Positions 3,472 to 61,605 of a stretch of DNA of 64,000 nucleotides are shown here, piece after piece (position 1 is the stretch's first letter; every line of letters starts with the position of its first letter). Under the pieces are notes generated by a model, which saw only the letters and a program-made list of their open reading frames with translations, was not told the origin of the DNA and searched no databases. The DNA comes from Promethearchaeota archaeon (GTDB taxonomy: Archaea > Asgardarchaeota > Lokiarchaeia > Sigyniarchaeales > SOKP01). Where the stretch lies: assembly GCA_048940925.1 (NCBI GenBank), contig JBHLOC010000006.1, positions 62,152 to 126,151 on the forward strand, given 5' to 3'. A program made the position numbers and the translations under genes.

Positions 3472-4881
3472 TTGAGCGATTTAGAAGGATTAACTAGGAG
3501 GTTAATGGAAAAAGGTTCTACAAAGGATGAAATTATTGTACGGCTTGTTAATGAATATATGGATTTTAAAGACATTGATAAGGAGTCTGCAATCTCACTT
3601 TCTGAAGCAATTTATGAAGAATGTCGGAATAGCGACATAAAATTAGTGAGTGATCCCTTTATGAGATATTTATTAGATATTAATAAGGCAAATGTGACCA
3701 TTGGAAAACAAGGAGTGGGTTGTAGGGGATCTGGTGATTTTTTCGTTCATAAGCTCATTGCAAAATTATCTGAAACCGAGAAAAGGGCATATTTATCGCC
3801 AAGCTCCTTAGATGATGCTGGTGCTGTGAGAATAAGTGATATTGAAGGATTTAAAGCTGAAGATGAATTAATCATTGTATCCAAAATGGAAGGAATTCAT
3901 AGTCGCCTAAGTGACTTTCCATTCTTGTGTGGTTTTCACGTAAATTCGCGTAATAAGTTTGCGTGAAGCGTATCGAGAGCCGCACTAAGAGATCTCTATG
4001 TTAAAGGTGCAAAGCCTATTTCAATTATGATTGATACGCATCTAGGAGATGATGCAGATGTAGGGAAACTTTTTGATTTTATGGCAGGTGTTTCTGCAAT
4101 TTCAGAACTAGCGAAAGTTCCAATTACAGCAGGTTCAACACTTCGAATTGGAGGAGATATGGTTATTGGAAACCGCTTAGTTGGAGGAATTAGTGCTGTT
4201 GGAATATGTTCTCGAGTTTTAGCAAGGAAGAATATTAAAGTTGGCGATAAAATTTTAATGACAGAGGGATCGGGTGGAGGGACAATAACGACAACAGCAA
4301 TATATTCAGGTAATCATCATATAGTAAAGGAGACTATGAATATCAAATTTCTTGAAGCTTGTGAAATTATCTTAAATTCTGAATATCTTAATGAGATTCG
4401 TGCTATGTGCGATGTTACAAATGGTGGTCTTAGAGGAGATTTATATGAAATTAATTATGAAGCTAATTGTGGTGTTAATATTTTTGAAGAAAAAGTAAGA
4501 GCACTTGTAAATCCAAATGTTCTAAATATGCTAGAAAAGGTTGGAGTTGATTATCTAGGAGTTTCTTTGGATGCATTATTAATATATTGTTCTGACTCTA
4601 TATCTCAAGAAATTATAAATGATTTAAGAAGAAATAATATTAAGTGTGATGAAATAGGTTCTGTAGATGATTCAAATCAAGTTTATATTAGTTATCAAGG
4701 TAAGGAAAAAAAACAAATCCTTCCAAAATTCAGAGAATCTGCATATACTAAGATAAAACAAGAGATTGGAGAGAAAACCCCCAAGTCTCTTGAAGTAATG
4801 GAAAAAAGTGTTGAGAAAGCAGCTATGGAAGCGTTAGAGAAGCGTAATAAGATAATAGAATATATTTTGAAGCAAGAATAA
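3472..4881 (+). CDS. AIR synthase-related (PurM/HypE/SelD superfamily) protein, archaeal type; exons 3472-3943 and 3974-4881; 459 aa if spliced
   Basis: ORFs 3472-3966 and 4027-4881 share one frame, separated only by TGA 3964-3966. Superfamily motifs span the break: GVGCRGSGD, DDAG, EGIHSRLSDFPF, RAALRDLYVKGAKP, DVTNGGL. Confidence 0.88.
3944..3973 (+). other. Predicted 30-nt BHB (tRNA-type) intron in mRNA
   Basis: Outer helix 3927-3937/3975-3985; 4-bp central helix ACGU 3938-3941/GCGU 3968-3971; 3-nt bulges AAA 3942-3944 and AUC 3972-3974; inner helix 3945-3953/3959-3967. Contains the in-frame UGA. Confidence 0.88.
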
Positions 4882-21811: not shown

Positions 21812-23017
21812 TTATAAACAACAATTTTTATACTTTTTTCCGCTTCCACAAGGACATGGTAAATTTCTGCCGATTTTTTTTGTTTTTATTTGAATTGATT
21901 CATCAACTTTTTTACTATCTCTTAGCTGTTCCGCTAGTACCTTAAAGTAGGGTAACGAATAAGTATAAAACTTTTTCCATCCTTTACACAAAACACTTAA
22001 TTTATTAAAAGAATTAGTATTACCAATACGGAATTTTTGACAATCTCCATTGCAGAGATATATGTAGGAACATGTATAGCAGTTTTTATTGTATAAAGAC
22101 TTTTGCATTCCAAATTTATGATATATGGGAGATTTTAAAAAATCCTCCCATTCACTGGTCATAATATTTCCTAATAATAGATCTTTCTGGACAAAAAAAT
22201 CACAGGGATAAATATTACCATCATATTCAACTACAAAATATTGACGACAATCATTTCCCATATAGCATACAGAATATTGTCTATTTAGTAAGAAATTTAG
22301 TATTGAATCAAATAATCGGATTGACACCCGATTAATATCTCCTTTTATCCACTCGTCAAATAAATCGCACAAGAAATTACCCCATTCTTTTCCTGTTATT
22401 GAGAAAGGTTTTGGATTATAATTTTCATCAAATTCTATACACGGAATATATTGGTGATAATCAAAATTGTTGTTTTTTAAATATTGATAAATTTCTCTGC
22501 CTTTTTTTACAGTTTCATTATTTATTAACGTTAAAATATTAAATTCAACGTTGTAGTTTTTTAATCGTTCAATACCACGCATAACAAGCGAGTGGGAAGA
22601 CTTTTGATTTATTGTTTTTCGATAATAATTATGAAGGTGTGCAGGTCCATCAAGGCTTACTCCAATAAGAAAGTTATAATCGGCAAAAAACTCCGCCATC
22701 TCATCGGTAATAAGAGTCCCATTTGTTTGAAGTCCATTACTTATTGTTGCACCAGAAGGGGCATATCGCTTTTGCAATTTTATAACATTTTTAAAAAATT
22801 CTAAACCCATTAAAGTAGGTTCTCCACCTTGCCATCCGAAAATATAATTATTATTCTGATTTGTCTTCATATATTTAGCAATTATTTTTTCCAAGACGTC
22901 ATCAGACATTCGAGGTTTATTTTCTGCACTATTTAGGTGATCTATATAAAAACAGTATTCACACCTTAGATTACAATCAGCTGAAACAGGTTTTATCAGT
23001 AAGGAAAATGGTTCCAT
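21812..23017 (-). CDS. Anaerobic sulfatase maturase family radical SAM/SPASM protein with SEC-C tail
   Basis: IKPVSADCNLRCEYCFY, WQGGEPT, YPCDF, CPCGSGKKYKNCC. Confidence 0.9.
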   Translation of the reverse strand: MEPFSLLIKPVSADCNLRCEYCFYIDHLNSAENKPRMSDDVLEKIIAKYMKTNQNNNYIFGWQGGEPTLMGLEFFKNVIKLQKRYAPSGATISNGLQTNGTLITDEMAEFFADYNFLIGVSLDGPAHLHNYYRKTINQKSSHSLVMRGIERLKNYNVEFNILTLINNETVKKGREIYQYLKNNNFDYHQYIPCIEFDENYNPKPFSITGKEWGNFLCDLFDEWIKGDINRVSIRLFDSILNFLLNRQYSVCYMGNDCRQYFVVEYDGNIYPCDFFVQKDLLLGNIMTSEWEDFLKSPIYHKFGMQKSLYNKNCYTCSYIYLCNGDCQKFRIGNTNSFNKLSVLCKGWKKFYTYSLPYFKVLAEQLRDSKKVDESIQIKTKKIGRNLPCPCGSGKKYKNCCL

Positions 23018-58592: not shown

Positions 58593-59153
58593 ATGAATAA
58601 AATACTTCTTAGTCCAAAAGTCTCCACTTTTCCTATGCCTGCTGCAGTTATCTCAGTAGGATTTGATGAAAAAGCAAATTTAATAACTTTAGCTTATGTT
58701 GGTAAAGTGTGTTTAAACCCCCCAATTATAGCTATCTCTATACAACCTAAACGTCATTCATACCAATTAATTGAAAAATATAGAGAATTTGTAATTAATT
58801 ATCCTACAGTAGAACAATTAAAAGAATTGGATTTTTGTGGAACGAGATCAGGAAGAGATGTTAATAAGTGGACGGAGTTAAATCTAACAAGGGAAGAAGC
58901 TTCAATAGTAAAAGTTCCAATGATAAAGGAGTTTCCATGGAATATGGAATGCAAAGTAATAAAAAGATTTGAGCTAGGTTCACACGTATGTTATTTTGGC
59001 GAAGTTCTTGCTGTACATTCTGATCCATATTATACCAGAAATGGTAATTTAGATCCTGAAAAGATTAATTTATTTGCGTATTTATCTGGTTTTTATATCG
59101 AATTGAAGAAGACTATTTTAGGAACTCATGGCTTTTCATTAGAGGTGTCATAG
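58593..59153 (+). CDS. Flavin reductase family protein
   Basis: EFVINYP, CGTRSGR, ECKV, GSH. Confidence 0.88.
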   Translation: MNKILLSPKVSTFPMPAAVISVGFDEKANLITLAYVGKVCLNPPIIAISIQPKRHSYQLIEKYREFVINYPTVEQLKELDFCGTRSGRDVNKWTELNLTREEASIVKVPMIKEFPWNMECKVIKRFELGSHVCYFGEVLAVHSDPYYTRNGNLDPEKINLFAYLSGFYIELKKTILGTHGFSLEVS

Positions 59154-59200
59154 GATAAATTATTGCTAAATACCATCATTAAAGCAAAATTGTTGTTGAA

Positions 59201-59731
59201 ATGAAGAAGGACTCTATTGCGCTCATAGGTTTTATGGCTACAGGAAAAACTACTATTGGAAAAGCAATAGTAAAAAAGCTTGGAGATGATTATAAGTTTA
59301 TTGAAACCGACGAGATTATTGTTAAAGAAACAGGTAAATCAATTCCAAGAATTTTTGAGAAGGAAGGAGAACAAAAATTTAGAGAATATGAAGTTTTAGC
59401 ATGTAAAAAAGCATCTAAGTTAAAAAAAACTGTAATTTCATGTGGGGGTGGAGTTGTTTTAAATAAAATTAATATTGATAATTTGAAAAAGAATTGTATA
59501 TTAGTCCTTTTGACAGCGACACCAGAAGAAATATTTAATAGAATAATGATGAATGGAAAAGAGACTAGACCTGTTATCAATAAACAAGATCCTAAATTAG
59601 AAATAGAAAGAGTTTTAAATTTTCGAAATCCTTTTTATGAAGCATCAGCAGATATTATTATTGATACCACCAATAAGAAAATAAAAGATATTGTGAAAGA
59701 GATTATAATAAAAACCCTAGCAAAAACCTAA
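59201..59731 (+). CDS. aroK: Shikimate kinase, bacterial P-loop type
   Basis: GFMATGKT, GEQKFREYE, SCGGG, RP, R.PFY. Confidence 0.92.
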   Translation: MKKDSIALIGFMATGKTTIGKAIVKKLGDDYKFIETDEIIVKETGKSIPRIFEKEGEQKFREYEVLACKKASKLKKTVISCGGGVVLNKINIDNLKKNCILVLLTATPEEIFNRIMMNGKETRPVINKQDPKLEIERVLNFRNPFYEASADIIIDTTNKKIKDIVKEIIIKTLAKT

Positions 59732-59793
59732 ATTTATATTTATAGAACCCACTAAATATGTAAAAAACTCATTTTAGAGTTAAGGGGATTAAA

Positions 59794-59993
59794 TTGACTG
59801 AGTATAAAAGGGTTAAATGTCCGAAGTGTGGTAATGAGAACCCACGTAAGCTTCATGAGGAGTCCGATAAAAGTAAGGTACTTTACTATAGTATAAGTAA
59901 TGCTATTTAAGCATACTGCTGAAGCAAGGTACTCCAGTATATGCTAAGAATGTGAAGTGTGGCGGGTGTGGTAATATTTTTAAAAAGGAATAA
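59794..59993 (+). CDS. 56-aa zinc-ribbon protein; exons 59794-59894 and 59924-59993 (not in ORF track)
   Basis: Predicted spliced product MTEYKRVKCPKCGNENPRKLHEESDKSKVLYYSMQGTPVYAKNVKCGGCGNIFKKE; AAGGGGA upstream of the TTG; T-rich tract after the stop. Confidence 0.78.
59895..59923 (+). other. Predicted 29-nt relaxed-BHB intron in mRNA
   Basis: Central helix UAGU 59889-59892/GCUG 59918-59921; bulges AUA 59893-59895 and AAG 59922-59924; inner hairpin AGU-A-AUGCU/AGCAU-ACU; outer helix GUACUUU/AAGGUAC beyond an internal loop. Contains in-frame UAA. Confidence 0.75.
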
Positions 59994-60297: not shown

Positions 60298-61605
60298 TTG
60301 GAAAAAAAAACTGAACAAGCACCTGAGCCAGCGACCCAGCAAATTAACGAGAATTTAAGAAATCTAATGAATATGTTGAAAGCGAGAGCACTTTCAGGAA
60401 TATTGACTTCTTTTCGATCACCAAAGGTTATTTTTGGAATGACAGCATTAAACCGACTAATCGATTATTTAAATGGTAATCTTGAAGAGGAAGAGAAAAG
60501 AGCTTTAATAATAACTGATGATTTTACTGAAAAATATGGTAATCAAATTAGTAATATGTTAAATAAAATAAATATAGAGTCAAAAGTATGGGCTGGAGTG
60601 AAACCAGAGGGACCTGTCGCTACTATTGAAGAGGCATTTAAAATATGTGAAGACTTTAAACCTAAAATATTTATAGCGATTGGTGGAGGGAGTGTACTTG
60701 ACAGTACGAAAGGTTTAATGGTTAGATATGAGAGACCTGAAATAGATCTATTTAATGTTACAGCTTTAAAACCTCTTGGTTTACGCAAAAAATTTAAATA
60801 TTTTATTGCTATTCCGACAACATCTGGAACTGGATCTGAAGCAACTCTAGCTTCGATGTTAACTGATACACGTTTTAATCCACCAAAAAAATTTACTGTC
60901 TCTCATCCAGAGTTGATTCCTGATTATGCTATATTAATTACTGATTTTGTAAAAGATATGCCGCCCTTTTTAACAATGGCTACAGGACTTGACGCATTAG
61001 CGCATGCAGTAGGATCTTATGTATCAACTATAGGAACTCCATTTTCTGATGCCATGAATACCTATGCTATTAAACAAATAGTGAAGTATTTACCTCGTGC
61101 ATATAAATATGGAGCTAAAGATATAGAAGCACGATCACGAATGCAAATAGCTGCACTGATGGCAGGATTAGGATTTATTCATTCTCGTGTTGGAATTGAT
61201 CATGCCTTAGGTCATAGTTTAGGGAAAGTACTCAATGTTCATCATGGACTTTGTGTTGGGATGTTTCTTCAGTATAGTATTGCTTTCCAAATGAAAATTT
61301 CAGAAAGGTGGAAAGATTTGTGTCCACTTTTTGGAATTGATATTAAAGATAAAGACAATAATAAATTATCGATCGAATTTCTTCAATGTATTAAAGATTT
61401 CATACATTCATTAGATGGCCCAGTATGCGTAAAAGAAATGAAGAATCCTATTATTACTGAGGAAGAGTACATTAAAAATTTAGATCTACTAGTGAAGTAT
61501 GCTGAAACCGATCCAGTAGCTTTTATGGTTACTCGTTATATTGATAGCGAAATTATAAAAAGAATATTTGAATATGCTTGGGATGGTAGAACCATTGATT
61601 TTTAA
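60298..61605 (+). CDS. Iron-containing alcohol dehydrogenase
   Basis: GGGSVLD, PTTSGTGSE, DALAH, HALGH, HG. Confidence 0.92.
   Translation: MEKKTEQAPEPATQQINENLRNLMNMLKARALSGILTSFRSPKVIFGMTALNRLIDYLNGNLEEEEKRALIITDDFTEKYGNQISNMLNKINIESKVWAGVKPEGPVATIEEAFKICEDFKPKIFIAIGGGSVLDSTKGLMVRYERPEIDLFNVTALKPLGLRKKFKYFIAIPTTSGTGSEATLASMLTDTRFNPPKKFTVSHPELIPDYAILITDFVKDMPPFLTMATGLDALAHAVGSYVSTIGTPFSDAMNTYAIKQIVKYLPRAYKYGAKDIEARSRMQIAALMAGLGFIHSRVGIDHALGHSLGKVLNVHHGLCVGMFLQYSIAFQMKISERWKDLCPLFGIDIKDKDNNKLSIEFLQCIKDFIHSLDGPVCVKEMKNPIITEEEYIKNLDLLVKYAETDPVAFMVTRYIDSEIIKRIFEYAWDGRTIDF

What the first reader, a model, noticed from the sequence alone, without database searches (positions are those of the whole stretch)
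59794..59993. Hidden 56-aa zinc-ribbon gene split by a second, frameshifting BHB-type intron
Seen: an apparently intergenic stretch encodes two zinc knuckles in different frames (KCPKCG and KCGGCG), and the first frame stops at TAA 59908-59910. Between them lies a hairpin with a 4-bp central helix (UAGU/GCUG) flanked by 3-nt bulges AUA and AAG. The outer helix GUACUUU/AAGGUAC is offset by an internal loop, making it a relaxed BHB. Cutting after the second nucleotide of each bulge removes 29 nt, creates AU|G (Met) and puts both CxxC motifs in one frame (...VLYYSMQGTPVYAK...). Frame restoration is a check independent of the fold, though only a one-in-three test by itself. Established: some EndA architectures accept relaxed BHB/BHL substrates. 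Inference: a real intron-containing gene invisible to gene callers.
Basis: partly seen in the sequence, partly recalled or inferred. Interest (0 to 1): 0.88.

Follow-up and report, generated by a model that had tools for sequence, protein, structure and literature searches.

The report
tRNA-type mini-intron splitting tiny zinc-ribbon gene
A 56-residue zinc-binding protein gene of a Loki-type (Promethearchaeota) Asgard archaeon is broken by a conserved 29-base insert shaped like a tRNA intron. The gene reads correctly only if that insert is cut out of the messenger RNA, which published work has confirmed inside an archaeal protein gene only for cbf5.

Summary

- **The split gene.** Window 59794-59993 holds a 171-nt gene for a 56-aa zinc ribbon, split by a 29-nt insert at 59895-59923.
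- **The junction.** Relatives in the same genus and in other genera that lack the insert read straight through ...YYSMQGTPVY.... Their DNA fixes the junction uniquely at AGTAT|GCA, exactly as predicted.
- **Conservation.** A model of the insert matched 35 of 54 genomes of the genus and 0 of 81 in the rest of the family. In all 29 distinct copies read it is exactly 29 nt.
- **RNA structure.** 93% of cells pair, against 25-50% in slid controls. Nine pairs change on both sides.
- **Selection.** Both exons have dN/dS of about 0.08, each in its own frame.
- **Splicing enzymes.** The genome encodes EndA alpha (with the loop that gives broad specificity), EndA beta and RtcB.
- **The motif is relaxed.** The central helix, 5' bulge and inner helix are canonical. 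The 3' cut lies in an internal loop.
- **Other sites.** Other lineages carry 30-32-nt inserts at other sites in the same gene, and two genomes carry two. One second insert is a copy of the first.

No RNA-level evidence was obtainable. This scan has already reported the same kind of intron in other genes of this genome.

The parts
59722..59739 (+). Conserved A/T-rich block upstream of the gene, overlapping the stop of the shikimate-kinase-like gene. Probably the gene's own BRE/TATA promoter.
   Evidence: Nearly invariant across 12 genomes while the flanking sequence diverges. The promoter role is inferred and was not tested.
59794..59894 (+). Exon 1: TTG start, 33 codons plus the first two bases (AU) of the Met-34 codon. 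Holds the first zinc knuckle, CPKC.
   Evidence: dN/dS is 0.084 over 27 distinct genes. The start aligns with ATG or GTG in relatives.
59895..59923 (+). 29-nt BHB-type (HBh' class) intron.
   Evidence: Absent, to the base, from homologues L017, L019, L020, L021 and L023. Always 29 nt in 29 distinct copies. Scores 62 bits against the covariance model.
59924..59993 (+). Exon 2: the G that completes the Met codon, then 21 codons with the second knuckle CGGC, and the stop.
   Evidence: dN/dS is 0.083 in the spliced frame, and 0.9-1.6 in the other two frames.
59889..59892 (+). 5' strand of the 4-bp central helix H (UAGU), pairing with 59918-59921 (GCUG).
   Evidence: 99.1% of cells pair in 29 sequences, with C-G, U-G, U-A and A-U variants.
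59893..59895 (+). 5' three-base bulge AUA. The cut falls after the second base (59894|59895).
   Evidence: Unpaired in the single-sequence fold and in the consensus fold. The cut position is fixed by the junction in homologues that lack the intron.
59896..59917 (+). Inner helix h' (59896-59904 with 59910-59917, one bulged base) and a 5-nt loop (59905-59909).
   Evidence: 7 of 8 pairs show changes on both sides that keep the pair.
59918..59921 (+). 3' strand of the central helix H (GCUG).
59922..59925 (+). 3' cut region AA|GC. It lies in a 4x4 internal loop opposite 59885-59888, or alternatively in a 2-bp mini-helix, not in a clean three-base bulge.
   Evidence: The cut still lies two bases after H, as in canonical BHB substrates.
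59878..59884 (+). Outer exon-exon helix, 5' strand, pairing with 59926-59932.
   Evidence: 94% paired. The synonymous third positions of the Val and Gly codons covary (A-U, G-C, G-U).

Best explanation
Window 59794-59993 is a real gene for a 56-residue zinc-ribbon protein that is conserved across Promethearchaeota (Lokiarchaeia-type Asgard archaea). In this genome and in a clade of its genus, the coding sequence is interrupted by a 29-nt intron of the archaeal bulge-helix-bulge type, inside the codon of an invariant Met at the tip of the protein's beta-hairpin.

The proposed mechanism is as follows. The pre-mRNA folds into a 4-bp central helix, a three-base 5' bulge and an 8-bp inner hairpin, plus a displaced outer helix. 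The heterotetrameric tRNA-splicing endonuclease (EndA alpha2 beta2, with the Crenarchaea-type specific loop) cuts after the second base following each strand of the central helix. RtcB then joins the exons, recreating AUG and restoring the frame.

Shown here: the exact boundaries, conservation, covariation, selection on both exons, and presence of the enzymes. Inferred: that these enzymes perform the cut and the ligation.
For: - **Junction.** Homologues that lack the intron, in four species of the same genus and one of another genus, lack exactly 59895-59923 and read ...VLYYSMQGTPVY.... About 55 further loci keep an invariant 111 nt between the two zinc knuckles, against 140 nt here.
- **Invariant Met.** The split Met codon is invariant in 64 family members.
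- **Distribution.** The intron model matches 35 of 54 genomes of the genus and 0 of 81 in 12 other genera of the family.
- **Length.** The insert is always 29 nt, although synonymous divergence (dS) is about 1.
- **Covariation.** 93.1% of cells pair against 25-50% in slid controls. Nine pairs change on both sides, and 0 of 500 shuffles reach the observed values.
- **Selection.** dN/dS is 0.084 for exon 1 and 0.083 for exon 2.
- **Chance.** Motif geometry at a fixed boundary occurs at about 0.0009 of positions.
- **Enzymes.** EndA alpha aligns without gaps to the A. pernix alpha subunit (3P1Z_B), including the K and R of the specific loop. That loop confers broad specificity (PMC3241643), and Asgard EndA is reported as (alpha-beta)2 with this loop (PMC5829648). 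EndA beta and RtcB are also present.
- **Other inserts.** Inserts of 30-32 nt at other sites in the same gene, some in frame but carrying stop codons, also obey the cut rule and splice to the family consensus.
Against: - There is no RNA-level evidence: no junction reads, no cDNA, no peptide.
- The 3' cut site is not a clean three-base bulge. The energy-based folds pair two of its bases.
- The outer helix is offset by a 4x4 internal loop.
- The single-sequence fold is unremarkable (z = -1.48).
- No database protein is 95% or more identical to a spliced product of an intron-bearing lineage, so no assembled transcript supports splicing.
Confidence: 0.88

Rival explanations
1. The 29 nt stay in the mRNA, and the ribosome joins the two frames by a programmed -1 frameshift or by translational bypassing (hopping).
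For: Exon 2 lies in the -1 frame relative to exon 1. A hairpin lies between them, and the zero frame ends in a stop, as at some recoding sites.
Against: - No X_XXY_YYZ slippery heptamer exists in any of 29 sequences.
- Orthologues lack the 29 nt entirely, with no extra residues.
- The insert evolves by paired compensatory changes, not by codon position.
- A frameshift or a hop cannot recreate the invariant Met codon, which is assembled from AU and G across the junction.
- The in-frame inserts in L084, L111 and L121 carry stop codons, so a frameshift cannot rescue them.
Confidence: 0.03
2. The insert is removed from the RNA, but by an activity other than EndA and RtcB, such as another endonuclease and ligase pair, with the resemblance to a BHB motif incidental.
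For: The 3' site is non-canonical. Cleavage by EndA was not tested.
Against: - The cuts fall exactly two bases after each strand of a 4-bp helix, as in EndA substrates. The same rule fits five further inserts of unrelated sequence.
- The host EndA carries the loop shown to allow cleavage of bulge-helix-loop substrates (PMC3241643).
- No other archaeal system for removing about 30 nt from RNA is known (my own knowledge).
Confidence: 0.05
3. The gene is a decaying pseudogene, or only the 38-aa N-terminal peptide is made.
For: Public annotation calls only truncated 42-aa products in relatives.
Against: - Exon 2 has no start codon of its own, yet its dN/dS is 0.083 in the spliced frame and 0.9-1.6 in the other frames.
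- There are no indels in 29 copies despite dS of about 1.
- The second CxxC is invariant.
Confidence: 0.02

Closest known systems
BHB intron of the cbf5 (aCBF5 pseudouridine synthase) pre-mRNA in Desulfurococcales and Sulfolobales (PMC2738675 and the work it cites)
   Same: - A short intron inside an archaeal protein-coding sequence.
- Often a relaxed cleavage motif.
- A host with a heterotetrameric, broad-specificity EndA.
- Patchy phylogenetic distribution, with gain and loss.
   Different: - A different host gene: a 56-aa zinc ribbon of unknown function.
- A different phylum (Promethearchaeota, Asgard).
- Several intron sites within one 171-nt gene, including two introns in single genes.
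- Splicing has been shown experimentally for cbf5 but not here.
Non-canonical tRNA introns of Thermoproteales and Asgard archaea (HBh' and hBH classes; PMC5829648, PMC3241643, bioRxiv 10.64898/2026.10.13.758758)
   Same: - The same motif class: 4 central pairs plus one flanking helix.
- The same size range.
- The same predicted enzymes.
- Repeated gains are reported for Asgard tRNA genes.
   Different: The host is an mRNA. The intron must therefore also restore a reading frame, and its outer helix is built from coding sequence.
Small archaeal zinc-ribbon proteins (TFIIS/Rpb9 C-terminal ribbon, RNase P Rpp21, eS27/eS31)
   Same: Two CxxC knuckles holding a long beta-hairpin.
   Different: - No Pfam or NCBIfam model reaches its cut-off.
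- Foldseek finds nothing below E = 0.1.
- The JGI label 'ribosomal protein S27AE' is not supported (16.7 bits against a cut-off of 54).

Membership tests
Archaeal BHB-type intron (EndA/RtcB substrate) | 4-bp central helix between the two cut sites | tested here: met
   UAGU/GCUG at 59889-92 and 59918-21. 99.1% of cells pair in 29 sequences, with compensating variants.
Archaeal BHB-type intron (EndA/RtcB substrate) | Three-base bulge at the 5' splice site, cut after its second base | tested here: met
   AU|A at 59893-95 is unpaired in all folds. The cut is fixed by homologues that lack the intron.
Archaeal BHB-type intron (EndA/RtcB substrate) | Three-base bulge at the 3' splice site, on the opposite strand | tested here: inconclusive
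   AA|G lies two bases after H, as required. However, it sits in a 4x4 internal loop, or a 2-bp mini-helix, rather than a clean bulge. This makes it the relaxed HBh' class.
Archaeal BHB-type intron (EndA/RtcB substrate) | At least one flanking helix (h or h') | tested here: met
   The inner helix has 8 bp, and 7 of its pairs change on both sides. The outer 7-bp helix is displaced but 94% paired.
Archaeal BHB-type intron (EndA/RtcB substrate) | Excision restores the uninterrupted gene sequence seen in homologues | tested here: met
   an exact 29-nt difference and a unique junction AGTAT|GCA.
Archaeal BHB-type intron (EndA/RtcB substrate) | The host encodes a splicing endonuclease able to cut relaxed motifs, and an RNA ligase | tested here: met
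   EndA alpha with the specific-loop K and R, EndA beta, RtcB.
Archaeal BHB-type intron (EndA/RtcB substrate) | Spliced RNA, or cleavage, observed | not testable with these tools
Programmed -1 ribosomal frameshift site | Slippery heptamer X_XXY_YYZ in the overlap of the two frames | tested here: not met
   Found in 0 of 29 sequences.
Ribosomal protein eS31 (S27ae) / eS27 | Score above the curated family cut-off | tested here: not met
   S27ae scores 16.7 bits against a cut-off of 54. S27e scores 19-20 bits against 70.
Zinc-ribbon fold | Two CxxC knuckles bracketing a beta-hairpin | tested here: met
   All four Cys are invariant. The AlphaFold model has pLDDT 85 with strands 21-33 and 39-47. 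No specific family could be assigned.

The most novel reading that the evidence does not exclude
This 171-nt gene may be a hot spot where tRNA-type mini-introns are repeatedly gained and move.

- At least five intron sequence types occupy four positions in it across Promethearchaeota.
- Two genomes carry two introns each.
- In one of them (G016) the second intron is about 76% identical to the resident first intron. It is inserted 19 nt downstream, after the same CAGUAU exon context. Its sister genome lacks it.

That would be a caught-in-the-act transposition of a BHB intron within a protein-coding gene, for example by reverse splicing followed by retro-insertion, or by gene conversion. It would suggest how such introns colonise Asgard mRNAs.
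Probability: 0.45. Interest if true: 0.85.

Novelty: new member of a known kind. Interest (0 to 1): 0.7.

Why it matters
In the papers I could search, endonuclease-type splicing inside an archaeal coding sequence is confirmed only for cbf5 of Crenarchaeota (PMC2738675). Three things follow from this case.

- **A well-constrained example in Asgard archaea.** It lies in the closest prokaryotic relatives of eukaryotes. The junction is fixed exactly by orthologues, with covariation and purifying selection in both exons.
- **Annotation is wrong for this family.** The gene is missed in this genome and truncated to 42 aa in relatives.
- **A small substrate for experiments.** The motif is relaxed, and the same tiny gene holds several intron sites and one duplicated intron. 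That makes it a compact, testable system for EndA specificity and for how such introns arise and spread.

Tried and rejected
- **Rfam and tRNA scans of the window:** nothing found.
- **Covariance model R1 on the own genome:** only the intron itself scored (62 bits); the next hit was 19 bits.
- **R1 hit at window 22951-22989:** antisense inside an intact radical-SAM ORF, so a chance match.
- **Second R1 hit in G090:** inside an intact short-chain dehydrogenase ORF, so a chance match.
- **Assembled spliced transcripts:** I looked for database proteins 95% or more identical to spliced products of intron-bearing lineages. None was found; the best were 82-93% and came from relatives that lack the intron.
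- **Metagenome scan for the spliced junction:** I left the step out.
- **Function of the protein:** Pfam, NCBIfam and Foldseek against the PDB gave only generic zinc-ribbon signals.
- **Frameshift, bypass and pseudogene readings:** rejected.
- **Tree from aroK alone:** it placed G000 and G018 away from the other intron-bearing loci. The concatenated tree puts them as sister to that clade, but with weak support (0.47). A single origin of the site-A intron is therefore likely but not proven.

Full report
**1. What is in the sequence**

Between a shikimate-kinase-like gene (59201-59731) and an iron-type alcohol dehydrogenase gene (60298-61605) lies a stretch with no long ORF.
- A TTG-started frame at 59794 encodes 38 residues with a CPKC knuckle and stops at TAA 59908-59910.
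- The -1 frame from 59925 encodes QGTPVYAKNVKCGGCGNIFKKE and then stops.
- The single-sequence fold gives the 4-bp helix UAGU/GCUG, the bulge AUA and an 8-bp inner hairpin with one bulged A.
- That fold pairs part of the proposed 3' bulge, and its energy is ordinary (z = -1.48).

On this sequence alone the case would be weak.

**2. Relatives decide it**

A DNA search of 41 related genomes found the locus in 23 of 24 genomes of the same genus.

*Copies with the insert.* In the alignment of the first 12 copies, the insert is present with no indel. The exons change mostly at third codon positions, and the hairpin changes by paired substitutions.

*Copies without the insert.* Further loci include copies in four species of the same genus (L017, L019, L020, L021) and one of another genus (L023). 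All read ...VLYYSMQGTPVY...KCGxCG as one ORF of 56-57 codons.
- In L019, BLAST places the gap exactly at query positions 116-144, which is window 59895-59923.
- The intron starts with A and exon 2 starts with G. The DNA of the copies without the insert (...AGTATGCAAGG...) therefore fits only one junction, AGTAT|GCA.
- This junction is the one obtained by cutting after the second base following each strand of the central helix.

*The wider family.* A scan of species-representative genomes found 102 loci of this gene, labelled almost entirely Promethearchaeota or Promethearchaeia.

| Distance between the first Cys codons of the two knuckles | Loci |
|---|---|
| 111 nt | about 55 copies without any intron |
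| 140 nt | copies with the insert at the window's site (site A) |

*Annotation.* The Met whose codon is split is invariant in a 64-sequence family alignment.

**3. Is the structure real?**

On 29 distinct intron-bearing sequences (a first pass on 17 is):
- 93.1% of cells form standard pairs, against 25-50% when partners are slid by 1-3 columns.
- Nine of 19 pairs show changes on both sides, and 0 of 500 shuffles reach the observed covariation.
- The central helix is 99.1% paired.
- The inner helix has double changes in 7 of 8 pairs. One copy (G013) has a wholly different helix sequence with the same shape.
- In the outer helix, the synonymous third positions of a Val codon and a Gly codon covary (A-U, G-C, G-U).

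With start and length fixed, the geometry of 4 of 4 central pairs plus at least 4 inner pairs occurs at 0.09% of positions in this window.

The consensus fold again prefers a 2-bp mini-helix over a clean 3' bulge. The motif is therefore the HBh' class: central helix, 5' bulge and inner helix, with the 3' cut in a 4x4 internal loop and a displaced outer helix. A recent census of Asgard tRNA introns counts HBh' among its canonical classes, and warns that looser definitions match by chance (bioRxiv 10.64898/2026.10.13.758758).

**4. Is the gene alive?**

Over 27 distinct intron-bearing genes:

| Region and frame | dN/dS |
|---|---|
| Exon 1, spliced frame | 0.084 |
| Exon 2, spliced frame | 0.083 |
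| Exon 2, the other two frames | 0.9-1.6, and mostly interrupted by stops |

- Synonymous divergence (dS) is about 1.
- Despite that divergence, the insert is 29 nt in every copy.
- Exon 2 has no start codon of its own.

A pseudogene is excluded.

**5. Recoding alternatives**

- No slippery heptamer exists in any of the 29 sequences, and the exon-1 frame always meets a stop inside the insert.
- Neither a frameshift nor a hop can rebuild the invariant Met codon from AU and G.
- The in-frame inserts found elsewhere in the family carry stop codons.

**6. Machinery**

The genome encodes two EndA paralogues.
- One (198 aa) aligns end to end and without gaps with the catalytic alpha subunit of Aeropyrum pernix (3P1Z_B, E = 4e-33). 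The alignment includes the Crenarchaea-specific loop, where SKPRL matches the K44 and R46 of EKPRG.
- That loop, and K44 in particular, gives A. pernix EndA its ability to cut relaxed and bulge-helix-loop substrates (PMC3241643).
- Asgard EndA has been described as (alpha-beta)2 with this loop (PMC5829648).
- The second paralogue is the beta-like subunit.
- RtcB is present and intact.

**7. Distribution and history**

- A covariance model of the intron matches 35 of 54 genomes of the genus and 0 of 81 in 12 other genera of the family. It matches once per genome, except for a second real copy in G016 and a chance hit in G090.
- In the window's own genome it matches only itself.
- In a tree of the two upstream genes, the site-A loci form one clade (support 0.95). 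G000 and G018 are its sister at weak support (0.47).
- A single gain within the genus is the simplest reading.

**8. More introns in the same tiny gene**

This goes beyond the finding as given. Five other loci have longer knuckle spacings.

| Locus | Extra insert | Position | Note |
|---|---|---|---|
| L084 | 30 nt | after GTTTATAA | about 70% identical to the L111 insert |
| L111 | 30 nt | after GTTTATAA | about 70% identical to the L084 insert |
| L112 | 32 nt | same place | unrelated sequence |
| G017 (L121) | second insert, 30 nt | three bases further on | carried in addition to the site-A intron |
| G016 (L105) | second insert, 31 nt | after CCAGTAT | carried in addition to the site-A intron |

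- With length fixed by the 111-nt rule, the best placement of each has 3-4 central pairs and a 3-8-bp inner helix.
- Each then splices to the peptide of its nearest relatives without an intron. For example, PVYKKRIKCGSC in L084 equals L080.
- In the tree, L111, L112 and L084 each sit among sisters without an intron (L095, L100, L080). The distribution is therefore patchy. The cause is repeated gain or lateral spread, or repeated precise loss.
- The second intron of G016 scores 40 bits against the site-A model (E = 3e-7 genome-wide). It shares about 76% of its bases with the first intron and follows the same CAGUAU context. The sister genome G014 lacks it. It looks like a recent duplication of the resident intron.
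- Truncated database proteins ending ...PVYK plus a few odd residues (P0101, P0104, P0110, P0112, P0113) indicate more such genes.

**9. The protein**

- The family has 141 members at E of 0.001 or less, nearly all 55-58 aa and nearly all 'hypothetical protein'.
- In relatives, the intron-bearing gene is annotated only as a truncated 42-aa 'hypothetical protein', for example GAH49967.1. The window's own 38-aa ORF is not on record at all.
- No Pfam or NCBIfam model reaches its cut-off, and the occasional label 'ribosomal protein S27AE' is unsupported.
- An AlphaFold model of an orthologue without the intron (pLDDT 85) shows a long beta-hairpin clamped by the two knuckles. The invariant SMQG lies at the hairpin tip, which is where the site-A intron sits.
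- Foldseek finds only weak resemblance to TFIIS/Rpb9-type and Rpp21-type ribbons.
- The gene follows the shikimate-kinase-like gene in at least 70 loci. A conserved A/T-rich block upstream suggests that it has its own promoter.
- Its function remains unknown.

**10. Comparison and verdict**

The closest known case is the cbf5 pre-mRNA intron of Crenarchaeota. It also often has a relaxed motif and a patchy distribution. Its authors noted that no other archaeal pre-mRNA splicing had been confirmed (PMC2738675). My literature searches found no report of such introns in Asgard protein genes.

This scan has already reported the same kind of intron in other genes of this genome. One is in this window at about 3927-3985, where I confirmed only that two ORFs are split there. 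I did not test those other reports.

I file this as a new member of a known kind, very probably spliced (0.88). Two added points of interest are the hidden small gene and the multiple, partly duplicated introns within 171 nt. What is missing is any RNA-level observation.

Noticed in passing
L016:371-401 (minus strand), the same as L105; genome G016: A second intron of 31 nt lies in the same gene, 19 nt downstream of the first. It follows the same CAGUAU context and shares about 76% of its bases with the first intron. The sister genome G014 lacks it. It looks like a recent intron duplication.
   Followed up: partly
L015:523-555, the same as L121; genome G017: A second, unrelated 30-nt insert carrying a TAA lies between ...PVYAK and MKCGDCG. 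The best BHB placement splices it to VYAKSMKC, matching relatives without an intron.
   Followed up: partly
L084, L111, L112 (about 1620-1660 in each): Inserts of 30, 30 and 32 nt follow GTTTATAA in genes of other Promethearchaeota lineages. Each sits among sister genomes that lack an intron. The L084 and L111 inserts are about 70% identical. Several truncated database proteins ending ...PVYK point to more cases.
   Followed up: partly
window 3472-4881: An enzyme gene (AIR-synthase-like by eye) is split into ORFs 3472-3966 and 4027-4881 around a hairpin at about 3927-3985. This is the 'first' BHB intron of the window, reported elsewhere in this scan. Its sequence is unrelated to the intron studied here.
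   Followed up: partly
window 22951-22989: This stretch shares the CAGUAU...GCUGAA ends with the intron model (16.8 bits). It lies antisense inside an intact 401-aa radical-SAM ORF, so it is a chance match.
   Followed up: yes
window 58593-59993 and at least 70 related loci: The gene order flavin-reductase-like, shikimate-kinase-like, zinc-ribbon gene is conserved widely across Promethearchaeota.
   Followed up: partly
window 59722-59739: A nearly invariant A/T-rich block overlaps the stop of the upstream gene, about 55 nt before the zinc-ribbon start. It is probably a BRE/TATA promoter. An oligo-T run follows the gene's stop, from about 60006.
   Followed up: no
L022 (genome G023): The orthologous gene is masked by a run of N after the first knuckle, so its intron status is unknown.
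   Followed up: no
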